IMG/VR virus record: IMGVR_UViG_3300006169_000165
Span: 1 to 34,517 of that record
From: a virus
Taxonomy: Duplodnaviria; Caudoviricetes
DNA length: 34,517 bases
Reading direction: 5' to 3' (one strand)
How positions within the stretch are numbered: position 1 is the stretch's first letter; the number at the start of each line of letters is the position of its first letter. A program made the translations under genes and the position numbers. The notes under the pieces are model-generated. The model saw only the letters and a program-made list of their open reading frames with translations. It searched no databases and was not told the origin of the DNA. Positions 1-12,474 of this stretch are shown piece by piece.

Positions 1-1446
1 CGCCGCGGCCGTGGCGAGCGGGTGCTCGATCTCGGGCAGGCGCGCGGCGAACCGCTCTTCCGTCCGCTCGAGCCGGTAGTCGTGCACCAGGTGCGGATCC
101 AGGTGATCGAGGCTGCGCTGCTGCAGTTCGCGCTTGAGCGCAACCGCGGCGGGGACGGGGGCCGCGTGGAAGTCGCCGGCGACGTCGGGCGTGGCGGGGA
201 TCGCGTCGATCTCGTGCTCCTCCCGGTCCAGGACGACGATGATCCGGGAGAGGTCGTGGCGCCGGTACCGGACCGGCACGCGCTTGCCGACGTAGTCGAC
301 AAACGGCGCCCGCCGGGGGAGCTGGTACGCGGTCCGCTCGAGTCGGATCGCGAGGTCGCTGTTGATCAGCCGGTCGATCTCCATCCACGCGAGCCGGGCG
401 GTGACCTCCGGGGGCGGGAGCAGCCGGACGCGCTGGTCCGCCATCCCCGCGAGCCAGCGGTGGAACGGGCTCTGCCCGGTCACCGAGTGGACGCGTCGGT
501 TGACCCAGAGCAGGAACTTGTCGAACGCCTCGTTCATCTCGCGGAGGTCGCCGAACCTCCGCATCTTGGTGAGCCGCTCGAAAGCCTGCAGCAGCTGCAG
601 CGCGCGCTCGATCTTGCCCTTGGCCTGGGCGTTGGTCTCGTGCTCCGTCGAGGGCCGGGCGCTGTCGTACTTGACGCCCAGCTCCTCGAGCGCCGTGCGT
701 ACCTGCGTGGACCGCAGTCCGCTGCCGCAGTCCGAGTAGACCTGCTCCGGCATCCCGTAGGCGGGCCAGATCGTCGTGTCCGCGGGCTTGCGCCAGCTGC
801 GCTCCATCAGGTCCCACCAGCACGCCGCGGCCTCCGAGGTGTAAAACCGGCCCCAGCGCGTGCGGCTGTAGTCGTCCACCATCCCGATCATCCAGACCCG
901 GGGGCGGCCGTTCCCGGCCTTGTTTTTGTTGAGCGCAGCCGCCGATTCGTGGCCAATCGAGTCGTCGCGGTCGATGTAGTAGGAAAGCGCGACGGTGGAG
1001 TCGATCTGGACCAGGTAGTTGCTGTGCGGGGCCTCCCACCGGCGGTGCACCCGGAGGTCCCGCTCGTTGTGCCGGCGGCTCACCTGGCGGCGGCGCAGCT
1101 GCGCGCGGAGCGTCTCCGGGTGCACCTCCAGCGGTGCCAGCCCGACGTGGGCCCGGTTGGCGTTGATCACGTCGATCGCGGCCCCGGCGTCGAAACCCAT
1201 GCGCACGGTCATCGCGGCGAGATCCAGGAAGGTCTCCTCGTCCAGCGCCTTCATGGCGCCGGCGTCGCTCCGGCGCCGTCGGGTGCGGACCGGCGTCCCC
1301 CGCTCGAGCGCGCGGTAGATCGTGCTCGGCGCGCAGCCCAGCAGGGCCGCCTGCTCCTTGACGTAGGCGGCACGCTGGCTCGGTGGCGGCGCGTGGCGCT
1401 GCAGCTCGTCGAGCTGCTCGGGCGTGAGGTTGGGATTGCGGGGCAC
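1..1446 (-). CDS. Mu-like DDE transposase (MuA family), 3' end outside window
   Basis: Not in the ORF track; translated by hand from GTG at 1446: MPRNPNLTPEQL…, N-terminal HTH (AALLGCAPSTIYRAL), RRRRSDAG, catalytic segments LVQIDST, MVDDYSR, YGMPEQVYSDCGS, NAQAKGKIER, then a C-terminal barrel (YQLPRR…VRYRRHDLS). No stop before base 1. Confidence 0.93.
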   Translation of the reverse strand, partial: MPRNPNLTPEQLDELQRHAPPPSQRAAYVKEQAALLGCAPSTIYRALERGTPVRTRRRRSDAGAMKALDEETFLDLAAMTVRMGFDAGAAIDVINANRAHVGLAPLEVHPETLRAQLRRRQVSRRHNERDLRVHRRWEAPHSNYLVQIDSTVALSYYIDRDDSIGHESAAALNKNKAGNGRPRVWMIGMVDDYSRTRWGRFYTSEAAACWWDLMERSWRKPADTTIWPAYGMPEQVYSDCGSGLRSTQVRTALEELGVKYDSARPSTEHETNAQAKGKIERALQLLQAFERLTKMRRFGDLREMNEAFDKFLLWVNRRVHSVTGQSPFHRWLAGMADQRVRLLPPPEVTARLAWMEIDRLINSDLAIRLERTAYQLPRRAPFVDYVGKRVPVRYRRHDLSRIIVVLDREEHEIDAIPATPDVAGDFHAAPVPAAVALKRELQQRSLDHLDPHLVHDYRLERTEERFAARLPEIEHPLATAAA

Positions 1447-3279: not shown

Positions 3280-4148
3280 GATCCCTGCTCCTGGTGTGAG
3301 AGGTCGTTGATGGCGCGGCCGAGCTCCTCATCGTCCGGATCGTAGTCCGCACCCTGCTCCGCCACGGCGTAGTCCAGCACACGGTCCAGCTCCATCTGGA
3401 TCGACCGCACCCAGCTCATCGCCCACGCCGGGTCCGGCCGCTCTCGCAGCACCACGTCCGCGAAGACGCGCAACTCGCGGAACGCCGCCTGCCACTGCTT
3501 CTCCGCCATGCTCAGCGGGGCGATCTCGTCCCGCTTCTCCAGCTCGAGGACCCGCGTCGTGAGCTGGGTGATCTCCTCCGCGCGCGCAGTCATCTGCTCC
3601 GTCCCCACCCGGAGCGTCTCGCGGAGCGCGGCCATCTCGCCGGCGAAATCCTCCATCGCCTCGCGCAGCTCCTCCCGGTGGTCCGCGTCCACCGGGACCA
3701 CGCGCCCATCCGGGAACTCCAGCGCCTCCCCCGACTCCAGCAGCCGAGGCCGCGCGTCAGCGTCCACCGCCCGCAGCGCGCGCAGCGTCCGACGCTGCAG
3801 GCCCAGCTCGGCGGCCAGGCCCATGAACTGGGCGCCCAGCTCATCCAGCTGGAGGAGTCGATCGTCTACCACGCGGCGCGACGGCGAGCCCGGGAGCGCC
3901 CGGCAGAACTGCTCCCACGTCAGGCCGAGCTGCTCGTAGGCCGCCTCGTCCTTGATCTGCTGCAGGGCGACCAGGGCGCCGACGTCCGACAGCGCGCGGG
4001 TGAACTCAAACGCGCTCACCATCCCCATCCGGTGCATGAGGCCGGCGGCGGCGCGCTGCTCCTCCGGGAGTCGTGCGAGGACGGTGTCCAGACCGTCACG
4101 CACTGGCGCCGCGGCGCCACTCTGGACACTCAGTTTCCGCGTACTCAC
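3276..4148 (-). CDS. Conserved transposable-phage early protein (DUF3102-like, coiled coil)
   Basis: YEQLGLTWEQFC…SRRVVDDRL…LGAQF…LGLQRRTLRALR pattern resembles the protein found upstream of the transposase in B3-type Mu-like phages (recalled, not searched). Confidence 0.7.
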   Translation of the reverse strand: MSTRKLSVQSGAAAPVRDGLDTVLARLPEEQRAAAGLMHRMGMVSAFEFTRALSDVGALVALQQIKDEAAYEQLGLTWEQFCRALPGSPSRRVVDDRLLQLDELGAQFMGLAAELGLQRRTLRALRAVDADARPRLLESGEALEFPDGRVVPVDADHREELREAMEDFAGEMAALRETLRVGTEQMTARAEEITQLTTRVLELEKRDEIAPLSMAEKQWQAAFRELRVFADVVLRERPDPAWAMSWVRSIQMELDRVLDYAVAEQGADYDPDDEELGRAINDLSHQEQGS

Positions 4149-4411
4149 TGGGTTTTCTCCTCACGCGACTGGCGCCCGGCGCCACTATGGACGGTCTGGA
4201 TCTGCGTGCGGACCCACGCGTCGAGGGTCGACTTGCGCCACCGCGGACGACCACGCCGGATCTCGTCCGGGGGAGCCATCACGCCCTCCGAGCGCAGGTT
4301 GTAGATGGTGCCGAGCGCGTAGGGCTTGGCCCGCAACTCCATCCCCACGTACTCCGCCGCCTGCTTGGGCGTCATCAGCTGGTCGTCAGTCCCGCCGATT
4401 GAGGTCTCCAC
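4145..4411 (-). CDS. Small HTH DNA-binding protein (AlpA/excisionase-like; Ner/Cro position)
   Basis: LMTPKQAAEYVG…GTIYNLRSEG…PRWRKSTLDAWV; AAGGAGA RBS; first gene of the leftward operon, divergent from the repressor. Confidence 0.85.
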   Translation of the reverse strand: METSIGGTDDQLMTPKQAAEYVGMELRAKPYALGTIYNLRSEGVMAPPDEIRRGRPRWRKSTLDAWVRTQIQTVHSGAGRQSREEKTQ

Positions 4412-4443
4412 CTGACTGGTTCTCCTTGCGCCCCGGTGAGATA

Positions 4444-5076
4444 ATGTTCATTTTGGTTAACGGACCTTCACGCTCTAGTCTAGTCAAGTCTGTATCGCCT
4501 GTCAATACTTTGAAACCCCAACGATCCGAACTTGCCGAGGATATCCGCGTCCGCTTAGCCAGTCGGCTACAGCGGAAAGGGATCACGTACCGTGCAGCAG
4601 CGCGTGCGATCGGGGGGATTACGCACGCCGCCCTGCACAAGTACGTGGAGGGAGAGTCAATTCCGTATCGCCGAACGCTCGGGAGGATCGCGGATTGGCT
4701 AGACTCTACAGAAGAAACTCACGAAACAAACGATAGGGAAAGTGCTGGTGGTCAGGCGAGGGGCCGGGGCGACGGGGTAGTTACAATTTTGGCGGATCCT
4801 GCGTATAATAGGTTTTCGGGGGAAGAGCGGGTTGCGATCGATGCCGCACGTCGTCTCACCGAACGTCTCACAATGGCTTGGCGCCAAGGCCACTATGAGT
4901 CGTTGCAGAATCTGGTTGAGGACGCACGCGAGATCGCCCTCGGTTTTCACCCGGCCGGCCGGGGCTTTGTCGAGGCCTGGATCGTCGTTTTCCTCCCTAT
5001 GATCACTGATGCGACCGAACAATCGGCCGACGAGGCAGGGGTGCGCATTGCAGAGGCGCGTAAGCGCGCGGATTAA
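4444..5076 (+). CDS. XRE-family HTH repressor candidate
   Basis: LQRKGITYRAAARAIGGITHAALHKYVEGESIP…TLGRIADWL is an XRE HTH; divergent from early genes. Start uncertain (ATG 4444 or TTG 4510). No S24 peptidase domain visible. Confidence 0.8.
   Translation: MFILVNGPSRSSLVKSVSPVNTLKPQRSELAEDIRVRLASRLQRKGITYRAAARAIGGITHAALHKYVEGESIPYRRTLGRIADWLDSTEETHETNDRESAGGQARGRGDGVVTILADPAYNRFSGEERVAIDAARRLTERLTMAWRQGHYESLQNLVEDAREIALGFHPAGRGFVEAWIVVFLPMITDATEQSADEAGVRIAEARKRAD
4477..4505 (-). promoter_or_regulatory. Sigma70-type early promoter
   Basis: Minus strand TTGACA (4505-4500), 17-nt spacer, TAGACT (4482-4477), in an AT-rich patch; overlaps three tandem WAGTC units. Confidence 0.8.
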
Positions 5077-6355
5077 TCGTGCACGCCAGGACCTGCCCGC
5101 CCCCCTCCATGCGATCCAATCCGACCAGTTCGCTCCGCTGCTCGCGCGTAGAGGGGGCAGTATCTCGCACTCGTTGCTCCGACATTCCCTCCAAATCGGA
5201 CCGCGAGCCGATCGTAGCTGGACGATCAACCTGAGTCTCTTCAATGCGCCGATCGTCGATCGATACGCGTTTTTCTACGCTTATTCGCTCGCGAGCTGGC
5301 CAGACGAGGTTGACTCGACAGCGCATGACCTGTTTGCGGTGTCATGCGCCTTGGACGTCGTCTCAAGCAAGGACTTGGACGAAGATTGGTTTCGAGCCGC
5401 GGTGGAGTTGTCCGTTGCCCCCGGCCTGTGGACCGGCAGATCGCTCGATGATCTCCTTTGGCTTGCGTTCGGTGTGTGGGGCTCTAGGATGCTGCTTTCC
5501 TCCAGCGCGCTCTACGCGCTGGGGAGGCGCGCTCGCCGGCACTCCCTATTCGCAACGGCAGAGCACTTGTTGCGCCGCTCCATCGCCGGCTCGGCGCGAT
5601 CCGAAGATTGGGCTACGCATGTTCTTGCCCACCTCCCGCTCGCAGCGACTGCCGCTCAGCGAGGCAGGTACCGTTTCGCCAAACGCACGCTGGCGAAGGC
5701 GTTCCGTACCGCTCAGCGTCACGGGCTCTCAGCACTCCAGGGCGCTGTAGCTCACGATCAGTTCCTCCTCGCAATCGATCTCGGCGAGACCGGGCGCGCT
5801 GTGCAACTGGCGGAGCAAGCCCGGCTCCTGTACGGCCCGAGACACCCGTGGCTAGCTCGACTCGCGCATGATGTCGGCTACCACTGGATCTGCAGCGGGA
5901 AGTTTGAACAGGGGCTACCGTTAGTGCGACAGGCCGCACATCACTTCAGCGTAGCCGAAGAAAAGATGGTTGCGTGGGGTACCGTCGCCCGAGCTGCAGG
6001 TGCTCTCCGGGACCGACCGCTCTTCGAATTCTCGGTTGGTCGGGTGCAGTATCTCCGTCATCAGGCTGATACGGAGCACTTTGCGGCGGAAGCCAACCTC
6101 GGTCTGGCACGAGGAGCCGCCGCGTTGGGCGAGTGGGATGAAGGTGAGCACTTCGCGCGAGAAGCGCTCGCGCTTGCTACCCGGCGGAGGGAGTCGTTTG
6201 TGCGACTCGAGGCAGAGGCAGTGCTTGAGTCCGTGCGAGCGCACCGCGCCCTCGACGCGGTAACGGTCAGGAGATCCCCGTTGAACGGCCGAGCGGACGC
6301 CCTCGCGAGTGGACTAATTGCCGATCTCGGCGAGGGCGCCGCAGTGGTGGTCTGA
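5009..6355 (+). CDS. TPR-repeat protein (candidate peptide receptor)
   Basis: Successive helical repeats (ALYALG…AEHLLRRSI; LAHLPLA…GRYRFAKRTLAKA; VAHDQF…GETGRAVQLAEQA; LAHDVG…GKFEQGLPLVRQA; ANLGLA…GEWDEGEHFAREAL). Start uncertain because it overlaps the repressor by 68 bp. Confidence 0.85.
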   Translation: MRPNNRPTRQGCALQRRVSARINRARQDLPAPLHAIQSDQFAPLLARRGGSISHSLLRHSLQIGPRADRSWTINLSLFNAPIVDRYAFFYAYSLASWPDEVDSTAHDLFAVSCALDVVSSKDLDEDWFRAAVELSVAPGLWTGRSLDDLLWLAFGVWGSRMLLSSSALYALGRRARRHSLFATAEHLLRRSIAGSARSEDWATHVLAHLPLAATAAQRGRYRFAKRTLAKAFRTAQRHGLSALQGAVAHDQFLLAIDLGETGRAVQLAEQARLLYGPRHPWLARLAHDVGYHWICSGKFEQGLPLVRQAAHHFSVAEEKMVAWGTVARAAGALRDRPLFEFSVGRVQYLRHQADTEHFAAEANLGLARGAAALGEWDEGEHFAREALALATRRRESFVRLEAEAVLESVRAHRALDAVTVRRSPLNGRADALASGLIADLGEGAAVVV

Positions 6356-6401
6356 CGCGGGGGGGTCGGGTTAGGAAAAGCCCCCCCATTTGGGGATCCC
6401 G

Positions 6402-6659
6402 TCAGTTTCCCCCGCTGCCTACTCCACCACCCCCCTTTTCAGGAGGGCCGCTGTCGCTCTGGGTAGTGTAGCCTCCGCCGCCTCCGAAATCACGCACGCC
6501 GACGCTGTCGGCTACGACGTCGCGGCTGGGCCGTACCGTCTCATGGCGTGCGCCGACCGGGCCGTCCTCCGCCGCCGTCGAGCAACCGGCGACGACAGCG
6601 GCAGGGAGCGCCGCAGCCATCAGGATGACGAGCCGCTGCTTCCAATTGGGTTTCGACAC
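6402..6659 (-). CDS. Small secreted lipopeptide with Gly-rich C-terminus (candidate signalling-peptide precursor, 85 aa)
   Basis: GGAG RBS then GTG at 6659: MSKPNWKQRLVILMAAALPAAVVAGC (basic N-region, hydrophobic core, lipobox VAGC, Cys26)…RDFGGGGGY…EKGGGGVGSGGN*. Confidence 0.8.
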   Translation of the reverse strand: MSKPNWKQRLVILMAAALPAAVVAGCSTAAEDGPVGARHETVRPSRDVVADSVGVRDFGGGGGYTTQSDSGPPEKGGGGVGSGGN

Positions 6660-6740: not shown

Positions 6741-7160
6741 ATGACTGAACGCACGGACGATCCGAAGCCCGCACCGCTGATCGAGCCGATCGTCGTCCGA
6801 GCCGGGCTGGCCTTCGTTGGCGCATTGGTGCTCCTCGTACTCGTTGTAGCGGTGGAGATCCACCGCCGCGAATTGGAACTGCGGGCTCGCGAGCCTGAAG
6901 CCGATACTGGGTCCGCCCTGGCCGCATACACGGCGTGCCGGCCCCACATTGCCGTGCGAGTCGGGTCTCCATCCACCGCACGCTTCCCCATGTCCCTCGA
7001 CGGCCGCGCCGTCTACGATTCGCGGGCCGCGGCGTGGGTTGTCCGAACCTACGTCGAGACGGACAGCGCCGGCAGGACAGTACGCAGCTACTGGATCTGC
7101 ACCCTGGACTACGCGCGCGGTCGATACTTGTTGAGGAGCCTCGTGCCCCAACCCCGCTAG
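6741..7160 (+). CDS. Single-pass membrane protein with extracytoplasmic domain
   Basis: TM helix AGLAFVGALVLLVLVVAV, then AYTAC…SPSTARFP…YVET…YWIC; GAGG RBS; own terminator downstream. Confidence 0.75.
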   Translation: MTERTDDPKPAPLIEPIVVRAGLAFVGALVLLVLVVAVEIHRRELELRAREPEADTGSALAAYTACRPHIAVRVGSPSTARFPMSLDGRAVYDSRAAAWVVRTYVETDSAGRTVRSYWICTLDYARGRYLLRSLVPQPR

Positions 7161-7222: not shown

Positions 7223-7257
7223 AGGGCCTCGCACACCGCGAGGCCCTTTTTCGTTTT
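7223..7257 (+). terminator. Intrinsic terminator
   Basis: AGGGCCTCGC-acacc-GCGAGGCCCT 10-bp stem followed by TTTTCGTTTT. Confidence 0.88.
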
Positions 7258-10614: not shown

Positions 10615-12474
10615 GTGAAGACGATCTCGCTGGGCGACTTCCAGGCACGCCGGCGCGGCCTGCGGGAGGAGCTGGACGATCTCCTCCCGGAGCCGGTCCC
10701 GGTGGAGCCGGACGACGACGCGAGCGCGGAGGAGGCGGAGCTGGAGGCCGCGCTGCAGGACGCGCGCGACTTCCTGGACCTCCCGAAGACCGCGAGCCGG
10801 GAGCAGGTGCAGGCGTGCTTCGGGGCGTCCATCGACGCGTTCAGCGGATTCTTCTTCGGCCACTACCACGTGGATGAGGAGGGGCAAGAGATCCCGCCGA
10901 GCCGGATGCATGGCGAGCTGCTCGCGCGGATCCAGGACCTGGTGCTCGGCCGGACGGCCAGCCGGGAAGAGGCATTCGCCTGCCCGCGCGAGTACGGCAA
11001 GTCGGTGACCGGCACGCTGACGGGCGCGACCTGGGCGGCGGCCAACCAGCACCGGCGCTTCCCGTTCATCTTCTCCGATACCGGGTCGCAGGCCGCGGGA
11101 TTTCTCGAGGATGTGCGGGACGAGCTGGAGGGCAACCTCCGCCTGCGCGCGGTCTACCCGGAGTTCTGTGCGTGGGAGGCGCCGCCGCGGCTCAATCCGC
11201 ACGGGCTGAGCCGTCTGGTGATGGCCAACGGGACGGTGATCATGGCGGCCGGCAAAGGCAAATCGGTGCGCGGTGCGCGGAAGGGCACGCGCCGCCCGGA
11301 CTGGATCATCCTGGACGATATCGAGTCGGACGAGGAAGTCGAAAACCCGAAGCGGCGAGCGAAGACGATGCGCTGGTACCGGAAGGTGGCGAAGAAGCTG
11401 GGGCGCGCGGCGGTCTACCTGATCCTGGGGACGATCCTCCACGCGCACAGCTTCCTGGCCACGGTGATCGGCAAGGACCAGGCGCGCATCTACCGCGCGG
11501 TGGAGGTGATGCCGTCGCGGATGGACCTGTGGGAGCAGTGGGAGCTCGTCTTCCACGACCGGAGCGTGCCGGAGGCGGAGGAGCGGCGGCTGCGGGCGCG
11601 CGCCTTCTACGACGCGCGTCGGGCCGAGATGGACGAGGGCGCCGAGGTCCTCTGGCCGGGCCGGTTCGCGCTCTACGAGCTGATGGAGGAGCGCGCGGAG
11701 GATCTCGCCAGCTTCCTGTCGGAGCGTCAGAACGACCCGTTCGACCCCGCCGCCTGCTGGTTCCCCGAGGACAAGCTGGTGTTTCTCGAGGCGCCGGACC
11801 TCCCGGCTCCGGAGGACGTCGTCGCGTCGGTGGCGATGTGGGATCCGAGCGACGGCACGACCACGAGCGACACGTCGGCCGTGCCGCGGATCGACGCGCT
11901 GCGGGACGGCCGGCGCCTGGTCTCCTGGGCGCTGGTCGATCGGGTCCCGCCGGAGGAGGTGATCCAGACGATCGTGGGCGCCCACAAGATCCGACCGTTC
12001 GGCGTGGTGGGCGTGGAGAAGGTGGGGCTGAGCAGCGTCCACAAGGACCTGACCCGCGTCGCCCGCGAGATGGGGATCGCGCTGCCGGTGCAGGCGGTGA
12101 CGCCGCACGGGAGCAAGGACCTGCGGATCCGGACCCAGCGGCCGCTGGTGGTGTCGGGCGGGCTGGTGTTTTCCGCGGATTTGCCGCGCGAGGCGGTGCA
12201 GCAGATCAAGTACTACCCGCAGCACCCCAACGACGATCTCTGGGACGCGATCCAGCAGGGCAACGCGCTGCTCGACGAGCTGCTGGCGGGCGTCAGGCCG
12301 GCGGCCTCGTCGCGGGATCCCGGCGTGACCGACGGCACGCTCACCGCGGCCGACGCGTTCGGCCGGGAGCGCCTGGCGGGCGACGACGGCAGGCTCGCCG
12401 TGACGCGGGACGCCCGCGGCGACGGCCTGCTCGGCGGGCTCCTCGGCAACCTGCTGGAGAGGATGCTCGGCTGA
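10615..12474 (+). CDS. terL: Terminase large subunit
   Basis: Walker A PREYGKS, SVRGAR, Walker B RPDWIILDDIE, LGTILH, nuclease motifs WDPS…SDTSA and PNDDLWDA. GTG 10615 with AGAGG RBS preferred over 10564. Confidence 0.93.
   Translation: MKTISLGDFQARRRGLREELDDLLPEPVPVEPDDDASAEEAELEAALQDARDFLDLPKTASREQVQACFGASIDAFSGFFFGHYHVDEEGQEIPPSRMHGELLARIQDLVLGRTASREEAFACPREYGKSVTGTLTGATWAAANQHRRFPFIFSDTGSQAAGFLEDVRDELEGNLRLRAVYPEFCAWEAPPRLNPHGLSRLVMANGTVIMAAGKGKSVRGARKGTRRPDWIILDDIESDEEVENPKRRAKTMRWYRKVAKKLGRAAVYLILGTILHAHSFLATVIGKDQARIYRAVEVMPSRMDLWEQWELVFHDRSVPEAEERRLRARAFYDARRAEMDEGAEVLWPGRFALYELMEERAEDLASFLSERQNDPFDPAACWFPEDKLVFLEAPDLPAPEDVVASVAMWDPSDGTTTSDTSAVPRIDALRDGRRLVSWALVDRVPPEEVIQTIVGAHKIRPFGVVGVEKVGLSSVHKDLTRVAREMGIALPVQAVTPHGSKDLRIRTQRPLVVSGGLVFSADLPREAVQQIKYYPQHPNDDLWDAIQQGNALLDELLAGVRPAASSRDPGVTDGTLTAADAFGRERLAGDDGRLAVTRDARGDGLLGGLLGNLLERMLG

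What the first reader, a model, noticed from the sequence alone, without database searches (positions are those of the whole stretch)
4444..6659. Candidate arbitrium-like peptide communication system (repressor + TPR receptor + secreted Gly-rich peptide) in a transposable phage of a probable Gram-negative host
Seen: directly downstream of the XRE repressor, in the same direction, is a ~448-aa all-TPR protein. Converging on it 46 bp away is an 85-aa ORF with a lipoprotein signal (VAG-C26), a low-complexity spacer and the C-terminus K-GGGGVGSGGN, plus an internal R-DFGGGGGY. The block is lower in GC than the structural genes and sits at the lysis/lysogeny switch. Established: a TPR receptor next to a short exported pro-peptide whose C-terminus is the signal is the RRNPP architecture (Rap-Phr, AimR-AimP), characterised in Bacillota and their phages. 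From memory, similar TPR proteins with two AHD motifs, next to small peptides ending GGxxGSG(G)N, recur in Longimicrobium-like genomes; I have not verified this. Inference: the phage counts infections or lysogens with an exported peptide (possibly GGGGVGSGGN) that is re-imported and sensed by the TPR protein. The TPR protein has no obvious HTH, so it may act on the repressor.
Basis: partly seen in the sequence, partly recalled or inferred. Interest (0 to 1): 0.92.

Follow-up and report, generated by a model that had tools for sequence, protein, structure and literature searches.

The report
Peptide-sensing phage switch in Gram-negative host
Right beside its repressor gene, this phage, which likely infects Gram-negative Longimicrobiaceae bacteria, carries a gene for a small peptide with an export signal and a gene for a protein predicted to bind that peptide, whose front part is predicted to have the fold of repressor-cutting enzymes but lacks their cutting motif, so the phage likely uses the peptide to choose between dormancy and replication, a kind of signalling so far described in Gram-positive bacteria.

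Summary
The genes are real, and the reading holds in outline with one correction. The TPR (5009-6355) and convergent lipoprotein propeptide (6402-6659) belong to an undescribed Longimicrobiaceae (Gemmatimonadota) family with 18-43 matches per genome. 61 of 91 receptors have a convergent small lipoprotein ORF, against 6 of 282 control genes, mostly ending in hydrophobic-G-S-G-x. Repeated tail copies within one propeptide stay alike in protein but differ at synonymous sites. A co-fold puts the phage tail on the receptor's conserved HD motifs (0.70, best control 0.02). Correction: the protein is not all-TPR. Residues 1-160 are predicted to have the ImmA/IrrE fold, without HExxH. This variant forms one clade and lies directly behind an XRE gene in all four loci with upstream context, three at phage switches; a sister prophage has a variant tail. 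Best model: Rap-like sensing and ImmA-like repressor contact in one protein, the logic of ICEBs1 RapI-PhrI-ImmA-ImmR. Export, re-import, repressor binding and direction are inferred. Against: 4 of 6 related phages lack it, and receptor-signal covariation was not significant.

The parts
4145..4411 (-). Excisionase/Ner-like HTH_17 gene, first gene of the leftward early (transposition) operon
   Evidence: Pfam HTH_17 E 8e-5; 62% identical over 63 aa in the sister prophage L113
4477..4505 (-). Early promoter-like site TTGACA-17-TAGACT, likely target of the repressor
   Evidence: TTGACA-17-TAAAAT at the same place in L113 (read from the alignment)
4510..5076 (+). XRE repressor (longest ORF from ATG 4444; likely start TTG 4510); helical C-terminal domain, no S24 autopeptidase match; overlaps the TPR start by 68 nt
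   Evidence: 45% identical to the G058 repressor
4780..4809 (+). Promoter-like site GTTACA-18-TATAAT inside the repressor ORF, pointing at the TPR gene (consensus match only, conservation not tested)
5009..5494 (+). N-terminal ImmA/IrrE (M78)-like domain, residues 1-162; HExxH replaced by Y90-A91-x-x-L94 (predicted pseudo-peptidase)
   Evidence: model pLDDT 85.9; top four VIA rows 6d2s Z 8.5, 6cyj 7.5, PprI 8sln 7.2, CapP 7t5t 6.4; register; no HExxH
5486..6355 (+). TPR superhelix, residues ~160-445; predicted peptide pocket H249, D250, R284, L285, D288
6381..6396 (-). Terminator-like hairpin just after the propeptide stop, between the convergent genes (4 such sites found against 2.5 expected, so weak)
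6405..6434 (-). Predicted mature signal, residues 76-85, GGGGVGSGGN after K75
   Evidence: family motif; residues 74-85 form the predicted interface; sister tail GGGVGNGGN after R
6402..6659 (-). 85-aa lipoprotein propeptide: signal peptide 1-25, Cys26, low-complexity spacer, C-terminal signal
   Evidence: most hydrophobic 11-mer 2.51 against 0.14 for the TPR's first 45 residues

Best explanation
The phage carries, behind its XRE repressor gene, a likely cytoplasmic TPR protein predicted to bind the C-terminal tail of its own likely exported lipoprotein propeptide, and whose predicted ImmA/IrrE-like but catalytically disarmed N-terminal domain would bind the repressor, so that the peptide level would set the lysis-lysogeny switch. 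Steps: (1) shown in sequence: gene order, lipobox, tail motif, loss of HExxH. (2) Predicted: the tail V80-G81-S82-G83 sits on H249/D250/R284/L285/D288; the N-terminal fold is ImmA/IrrE-like. (3) Inferred: lysogens and infected cells export the propeptide by Sec and signal peptidase II; a host protease clips the ~10-mer after K75; it leaves and re-enters cells through porins and an Opp-type ABC importer. (4) Inferred by analogy with ICEBs1: without peptide, the ImmA-like domain binds and disables the repressor by sequestration, not cleavage, freeing the leftward early promoter; peptide binding switches this off, so many lysogens favour dormancy. My odds: cognate receptor-peptide pair 0.85; acts on the adjacent repressor 0.6; signal travels between cells 0.6; whole chain with this sign about 0.4.
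For: Adjacency: 61 of 91 receptors against 6 of 282 control genes; with motif 56 against 1. In 21 propeptides with repeated tails, copies are 68% identical at variable positions against 31% between propeptides (p 1e-4); 86 of 139 identical residues use different codons and the flanks are 8% identical. Co-fold score 0.70, best of 3 controls 0.02; this mark was reached by 116 of 157 solved and 2 of 215 mismatched pairs (roughly, since own alignments were used); runs share at least 66% of contacts and partner pLDDT is at least 43. The pocket residues are the family's most conserved: D288 invariant in 116 sequences, H249 and L285 at 90% or more. N-terminal fold; alignment with M78 peptidases shows YExxC in L127 and EADAFA in L115. 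ImmA-type receptors form one clade of 12 of 95 sequences, support 0.857. Order XRE > ImmA-type TPR >< propeptide in window, G058, G024 and G038; same-direction XRE-like genes lie within 1 kb upstream of only 2 of 90 host-type receptors. The sister prophage keeps the module with a changed tail. Opp-type binding proteins and Omp85 in 5 of 5 host-family genomes. ICEBs1 precedent: PMC6540685 passages.
Against: Receptor similarity does not predict signal similarity across 58 pairs (Mantel rho 0.05, p 0.24). Profile comparison of the N-terminal domain with 9 host M78 domains is not significant (probability 0.08% and 0.04%), and the best Z of 8.5 is near the level the tool calls common, so the fold call rests on four concordant rows and the hand-checked register. 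4 of 6 related Mu-like phages lack the module, so it is not needed for the switch. 30 of 91 receptors have no adjacent propeptide. G038 was found by searching with the repressor, so its XRE adjacency is not independent; G024 is not clearly a phage. The repressor C-terminal domains of G024 and G038 differ from the window's. A lipid anchor would keep the precursor in a membrane, and no releasing protease was identified. The co-fold pass may reflect likeness to solved TPR-peptide complexes, and the peptide's own fold is uncertain (pLDDT under 50). Repressor binding was not tested.
Confidence: 0.45

Rival explanations
1. The receptor-peptide pair is real and acts on the repressor, but with the opposite sign or as a co-repressor: peptide-bound (or free) TPR stabilises repression, or the peptide licenses induction when hosts are dense.
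For: The ImmA-like domain lacks HExxH, so it cannot be assumed to destroy the repressor. It overlaps the repressor gene in the same direction, as a co-expressed partner would. Host tails are G-rich and similar (RGGGGFGSGN, RGGGGLGSGS), so host peptides might occupy the phage receptor and report host density.
Against: The phage keeps its own propeptide gene in all four ImmA-type loci with context, which fits self-counting. Characterised ImmA/IrrE proteins inactivate XRE repressors (PMC6540685 passages; PMC12828697 listing).
Confidence: 0.2
2. An accessory cassette captured from the host's large TPR-peptide family, which tunes or jams host signalling and does not touch the phage switch.
For: 18-43 matches per host genome; absent from 4 of 6 related phages; lower GC block; immunity regions carry variable cargo (L090 has other genes in this slot).
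Against: The phage form has a different N-terminal domain from host copies, is one clade and lies behind an XRE gene in a Mu-like phage and in an integrase-bearing element.
Confidence: 0.15
3. An intracellular or contact-range sensor, not a diffusible signal: the tail stays on a membrane-anchored lipoprotein and reaches the TPR only when export fails or the envelope is damaged, or passes between cells in vesicles or by contact, giving a stress trigger for the switch.
For: The family uses a lipobox, not a plain Sec signal; an outer membrane separates cells; this repressor shows no S24 autocleavage match, so another trigger is needed.
Against: R or K lies 3-7 residues before the core in 38 of 56 tails and many propeptides hold 2-7 copies, as in processed multi-pheromone propeptides (PMC11343458 abstract).
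Confidence: 0.15
4. The small ORF is a modified-peptide (RiPP) precursor or a plain small lipoprotein, and the TPR protein is its scaffold or an unrelated neighbour.
For: Repeated cores and a conserved G-S-G motif resemble RiPP precursors (own knowledge); some tails are flanked by cysteines (L024, L035, L145).
Against: The upstream genes scanned are unrelated housekeeping genes with no recurring modifying enzyme (60 host-type loci); the co-fold docks the unmodified tail.
Confidence: 0.05

Closest known systems
ICEBs1 RapI-PhrI / ImmA / ImmR of Bacillus subtilis (PMC6540685, passages read)
   Same: Mobile element; XRE-type repressor facing an excisionase promoter; ImmA-family module behind the repressor; HTH-less TPR receptor with an adjacent secreted peptide
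   Different: Here the ImmA-like domain and the TPR are one protein and HExxH is lost, so no cleavage is expected; the peptide gene is convergent and a lipoprotein; diderm host; Mu-like phage
Arbitrium AimR-AimP-AimX of Bacillus phages (AimX detail recalled; AimR as RRNPPA member in PMC9765709 passages)
   Same: TPR receptor and small exported propeptide with a C-terminal signal at a phage lysis-lysogeny locus; related phages carry variant peptides
   Different: No DNA-binding domain and no aimX-like output seen; output is predicted to be protein contact with the repressor; no sequence homology detected
Rap-Phr and the RRNPP(A) superfamily (PMC10075063 abstract and section 15; PMC9765709 passages; PMC11343458 abstract)
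   Same: Receptor of 250-500 aa with TPRs, propeptide under 100 aa within 400 bp, many paralogous cassettes per genome, orphans, tandem-duplicated signals
   Different: Described for Firmicutes; Rap structures rank only 35, 45 and 49 in the fold search, behind LGN and consensus TPRs; lipobox, convergent layout and a hydrophobic-G-S-G-x core read by HD motifs are specific to this family
ImmA/IrrE (M78) peptidases: IrrE/PprI-DdrO, CapP-CapH, and the domain in M. tuberculosis PrpR (identity of 6d2s/6cyj as PrpR is recalled)
   Same: Predicted fold of residues 1-162; position next to an XRE gene; R-F..., N and E-A-D-x-F-A elements in register
   Different: HExxH absent in the window protein and 8 of 8 relatives scanned, and in L115 and L127 by alignment; the sensor is a peptide-binding TPR, not a ssDNA/GAF module

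Membership tests
RRNPP(A) peptide systems | Receptor of 250-500 aa with TPR repeats and no export signal | tested here: met
   448 aa; TPR_MalT E 7e-6 and TPR_12 (below cut-offs); TPR superhelix; non-hydrophobic N-terminus; criteria from PMC10075063 section 15
RRNPP(A) peptide systems | Adjacent propeptide of 10-100 aa within -60 to 400 bp with a secretion signal | tested here: met
   85 aa, 46 bp, lipobox by my own detector; SignalP not available
RRNPP(A) peptide systems | Host in Firmicutes/Bacillota | tested here: not met
   Relatives and a sister prophage lie in Longimicrobiaceae; Omp85 in 5 of 5 genomes
RRNPP(A) peptide systems | Homology to a known subfamily (Rap, Rgg, NprR, PlcR, PrgX, ComR, AimR) | tested here: inconclusive
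   No such Pfam, PHROG or NCBIfam match; Rap structures match only as generic TPRs
RRNPP(A) peptide systems | Mature peptide binds the TPR groove | tested here: inconclusive
   Model supports, does not show: 0.70 against best control 0.02; mark reached by 116 of 157 solved and 2 of 215 mismatched pairs
RRNPP(A) peptide systems | Export, maturation and re-import through an oligopeptide permease | not testable with these tools
   PF00496 binding proteins exist in 5 of 5 host-family genomes; use not shown
Arbitrium (AimR-AimP-AimX) | Receptor with an N-terminal DNA-binding domain that drives aimX (recalled) | tested here: not met
   N-terminal domain is predicted ImmA/IrrE-like, with no HTH match
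Arbitrium (AimR-AimP-AimX) | Peptide controls lysis versus lysogeny | not testable with these tools
   Position at the switch only
ImmA/IrrE M78 metallopeptidases | Zincin-type M78 fold | tested here: met
   Top four of 48,161 chains are IrrE-family: Z 8.5 (rmsd 3.8, 140 aligned), 7.5 (4.0, 141), 7.2 (2.8, 97), 6.4 (4.4, 126); next 5.2. Foldseek ranks the same family first but at E 0.05-0.26. Profile test not significant.
ImmA/IrrE M78 metallopeptidases | HExxH zinc motif | tested here: not met
   Y90-A91-Y92-S93-L94 at the aligned position; no HExxH in the window protein or 8 relatives
ImmA/IrrE M78 metallopeptidases | Acts on an adjacent XRE repressor | not tested
   Adjacency in 4 of 4 loci with upstream context; no co-fold or assay with the repressor

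The most novel reading that the evidence does not exclude
A phage peptide-communication system in a Gram-negative phylum, evolved independently of arbitrium: Longimicrobiaceae phages took one cassette of an undescribed host-wide lipoprotein-peptide/TPR signalling family and fused the receptor to a dead ImmA anti-repressor domain, making a single peptide-gated anti-repressor with phage-specific dialects (GGGGVGSGGN, GGGVGNGGN, cysteine-flanked GGPTGSGT).
Probability: 0.4. Interest if true: 0.93.

Novelty: new variant of a known kind. Interest (0 to 1): 0.84.

Why it matters
In the papers read here, cytoplasmic peptide quorum sensing and its phage versions are described for Gram-positive Firmicutes. 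This would be the same logic in a bacterium with an outer membrane, using lipoprotein precursors, in a family with tens of cassettes per genome and no description found in eight literature searches. The phage version suggests a new output: a Rap-like sensor and an ImmA-like repressor-binding domain in one chain. It gives a three-gene, 2.2-kb, directly testable system (peptide, pocket residues, repressor and promoter are all specified), and a way to ask how peptides cross a diderm envelope as signals.

Tried and rejected
Searches for the TPR in viral contigs found nothing with P0001, A2 or A5; the nine-sequence alignment was too divergent for the pattern search. The metagenome scan gave one short locus, L125, with a convergent propeptide but no upstream context. 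The first full-length fold left residues 1-160 at pLDDT under 50 because two N-terminal types were mixed; a subfamily alignment solved this. N-terminal domain: no Pfam M78 match, no PDB sequence match, no Atlas hit, hhalign not significant; a search of longer proteins returned only 3 of the alignment's own members. Mantel and mutual-information tests for receptor-signal covariation gave nothing usable (the L125 motif was mis-parsed there). The Pfam scan of upstream genes missed both XRE positive controls at E 0.001, so it cannot show absence of XRE genes; I replaced it with a custom XRE profile, which finds the ImmA-type loci by construction. No RNA holder was listed for the region. No operator-like repeat was found at 4400-4560. 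Rejected: 'all-TPR'; AimR membership; an active ImmA protease; the internal FGGGGGY as a conserved second signal. Literature searches that found no description of this family or fusion: (open-access library only; supplements of the RRNPP surveys were not read and could list such candidates).
Full report
Observation. The window is a whole 34.5-kb viral record of a Mu-like transposable phage: transposase at 1-1446(-), then terminase, portal, capsid and tape-measure genes. Between the leftward early operon and the late genes lie an XRE gene (4444/4510-5076), a 448-aa gene (5009-6355) and, 46 bp away on the other strand, an 85-aa ORF (6402-6659) with lipobox VAG-C26 and the tail K-GGGGVGSGGN. The block is 62.7% GC against 71.8% elsewhere. 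A TTGACA-17-TAGACT site at 4505..4477 points left and recurs in the sister prophage. A 1-nt indel between the two phages in 4444-4509 argues that the repressor starts near TTG 4510 (inferred).

The family. The TPR protein has 917 relatives among 50%-identity representatives. Named genome hits are Longimicrobiaceae/Gemmatimonadota (18 of 19 loci), and Atlas clusters agree. Five genomes hold 18-43 matches each, counting weak generic ones. In a phylum-wide sample only 3 of 151 genomes matched at E 1e-50, and all three are in the Longimicrobiaceae family list. These hosts are diderms: Omp85 in 5 of 5. I fetched all 34 full-length copies of G001, all 15 of G002, part of those of G003-G005 (chosen largely by score), the loci and the phage-type loci. 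This gave 94 distinct receptors, 91 with at least 400 nt downstream. 61 of 91 have a convergent ORF of 30-140 aa with a lipoprotein signal within 300 nt; 56 of the 61 carry hydrophobic-G-[STGNAP]-G, 49 in the last nine residues. The same detector fired on 6 of 282 other genes in these loci, once with the motif. In G001 alone I count 26 of 34 with propeptide and motif (hand count). 30 of 91 have none, including a conserved orthologous group and some members of tandem pairs. The sample contains orthologues, so the 91 are not independent.

Is the tail a specific signal? In 21 propeptides with two or more copies, first and last copy share 68% of variable positions against 31% between propeptides (permutation p 1e-4). 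The 8 residues before them share 8%, and 86 of 139 identical residues use different codons. Each cassette therefore keeps its own word under selection. R or K lies 3-7 residues before the core in 38 of 56 tails. Against this, overall receptor similarity does not predict tail similarity over 58 pairs (rho 0.05, p 0.24), although it does predict signal-peptide similarity (rho 0.25, p 0.001), so the genes descend together while tails change fast. A co-fold of TPR 160-445 with propeptide 56-85 scored 0.70 against a best control of 0.02. That mark was reached by 116 of 157 solved and 2 of 215 mismatched pairs (only roughly applicable with my alignments); runs agreed in at least 66% of contacts and partner pLDDT was at least 43. 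Only residues 74-85 were confidently placed, with V80-G81-S82-G83 on H249, D250, R284, L285 and D288. D288 is invariant in 116 sequences, and H249 and L285 are at 90% or more. This supports binding and does not show it; likeness to solved TPR-peptide complexes may contribute.

Host copies begin with an RRWRxPP-type region; the phage protein and eight close relatives have a different N-terminus. Folded from its own alignment it gives a confident alpha/beta domain (pLDDT 85.9). The top four of 48,161 chains are 6d2s (Z 8.5, rmsd 3.8, 140 aligned), 6cyj (7.5), PprI/IrrE 8sln (7.2) and CapP 7t5t (6.4), with the next at 5.2; Foldseek ranks the same entries first at weak E-values. That 6d2s/6cyj are PrpR with an IrrE-like domain is recalled. 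Aligned with host M78 peptidases, the HExxH position reads Y90-A-Y-S-L94 in the window, YEVAC in L127 and RAVAR in L115, and L115 keeps EADAFA. No HExxH is present in the window protein or 8 relatives. Profile-profile comparison was not significant, so I put the fold assignment at about 0.85. A different, unrecognised metal site is not excluded. On a tree of TPR regions alone, these ImmA-type receptors form one clade (12 of 95 sequences, support 0.857).

Context of the ImmA-type clade. Searching 71 family genomes with the N-terminal domain found two loci; a 401-genome phylum sample added none. G058:C121 is an integrated sister prophage (transposase 64%, terminase 69% identical) with the same order: HTH gene, divergent XRE, overlapping TPR, convergent lipoprotein ORF ending KR-GGGVGNGGN. 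G024:C31 has an XRE-like gene, ImmA-type TPR and convergent propeptide, with a host-type TPR divergent from the XRE; it is not clearly a phage. A repressor search gave 4 matches in 71 genomes; two are followed by an ImmA-type TPR: G058, and G038:C530, where a divergent HTH_17 gene, ParB and a phage integrase mark a different prophage type and the propeptide ends C-DNGGPTGSGTR-C. G038 is not independent evidence for XRE adjacency. Among 90 host-type receptors a custom XRE profile found same-direction genes within 1 kb for 2 and divergent ones for 4. Of six distinct related Mu-like phages, two carry the module (window, G058) and four do not (L090/L142, L130/L143, L132/L134, L144).

Mechanism. 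In ICEBs1 the RRNPP protein RapI stimulates the metalloprotease ImmA to cleave the repressor ImmR, and imported PhrI blocks RapI, so crowding by carriers keeps the element quiet (PMC6540685, passages). IrrE likewise inactivates the XRE repressor DdrO (PMC12828697, search listing). The phage has the same parts with sensor and ImmA fold in one chain and the zinc motif gone. I infer a peptide-gated anti-repressor that binds but does not cut, with peptide favouring lysogeny. The repressor has no S24 autocleavage match, which leaves room for such a trigger. Opp-type binding proteins exist in 5 of 5 host-family genomes. Export, release from the lipid anchor, passage through the outer membrane, repressor contact and sign are all untested; rivals are the opposite sign, a host-directed accessory cassette, and an intracellular or contact-range sensor.

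Comparison and novelty. The pair meets the operational RRNPP criteria for receptor size, TPRs, propeptide size, distance and export signal (PMC10075063 section 15). It fails the Firmicutes range and shows no specific homology to a known subfamily. It works like Rap-Phr/ICEBs1 but is not filed as RRNPPA or arbitrium, and the N-terminal domain is not an active M78 peptidase. PMC9765709 (passages) and PMC11343458 (abstract) describe Firmicutes systems, including duplicated pheromones. Eight searches of the open-access library found no account of this family or fusion; subscription papers and supplements were not seen. An earlier unchecked note of this scan reports the same host-wide pair beside a repressor in another Gemmatimonadota prophage, and two report analogous modules in Acidobacteria-linked phages; these are not independent evidence, and the lines shown do not mention an ImmA-like domain.

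Verdict. Real feature; new variant of a known kind; interest 0.84. Odds: cognate pair 0.85, acts on the repressor 0.6, intercellular signal 0.6, full model about 0.4-0.45.

Noticed in passing
G001 (34 copies), G002 (15 copies), G003-G005; loci L008-L089: Host-wide expanded family of HTH-less TPR receptors (RRWRxPP-type N-terminus of unknown fold) with convergent lipoprotein propeptides carrying 1-7 copies of the signal, in unrelated housekeeping neighbourhoods; its output is unknown and deserves its own study.
   Followed up: partly
L086:1520-1756(-), L056, L077 (divergent); L072, L074 (same direction); L115:578-1057: Small XRE-like genes within 1 kb upstream of 6 of 90 host-type receptors, so some host cassettes may also act through XRE proteins.
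   Followed up: partly
L001-L005, L007, L012, L013, L015: A conserved orthologous receptor group without a propeptide; a different conserved gene follows on the same strand. Possibly an orphan core receptor.
   Followed up: no
L018/L078, L066, L087, L088, L089: Receptors in tandem or close pairs in which only one has an adjacent propeptide.
   Followed up: no
P0028, P0047, P0121 (707-741 aa); L055, L068 long frames: Longer family members, some with two matched stretches, suggesting double-receptor or other fusions.
   Followed up: no
window 6741-7160(+), terminator-like hairpin 7223-7247: 139-aa membrane-anchored ORF divergent from the propeptide (phrog_13160, E 1e-4); the same slot holds other cargo in relatives; possibly an exclusion gene.
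   Followed up: no
L113:10118-10504(+); L145:11499-11816 and 11903-12202(+): Both module-bearing prophages carry Cys-rich small ORFs with an MKKLKLxLxDLxVxSF-like leader, resembling RiPP precursors (resemblance recalled), inside their early regions.
   Followed up: no
G017:C219, G053:C100, G002:C1:619000-638000, G047:C404, G009:C33, L132: A group of Mu-like transposable phages of Longimicrobiaceae with interchangeable immunity regions; transposase matches in 6 of 71 family genomes.
   Followed up: partly
L024, L027 to L035 region tails, L115:2417-2701, L145:7788-7976: Some propeptides have cysteines flanking or near the signal, suggesting disulfide-looped variants.
   Followed up: no
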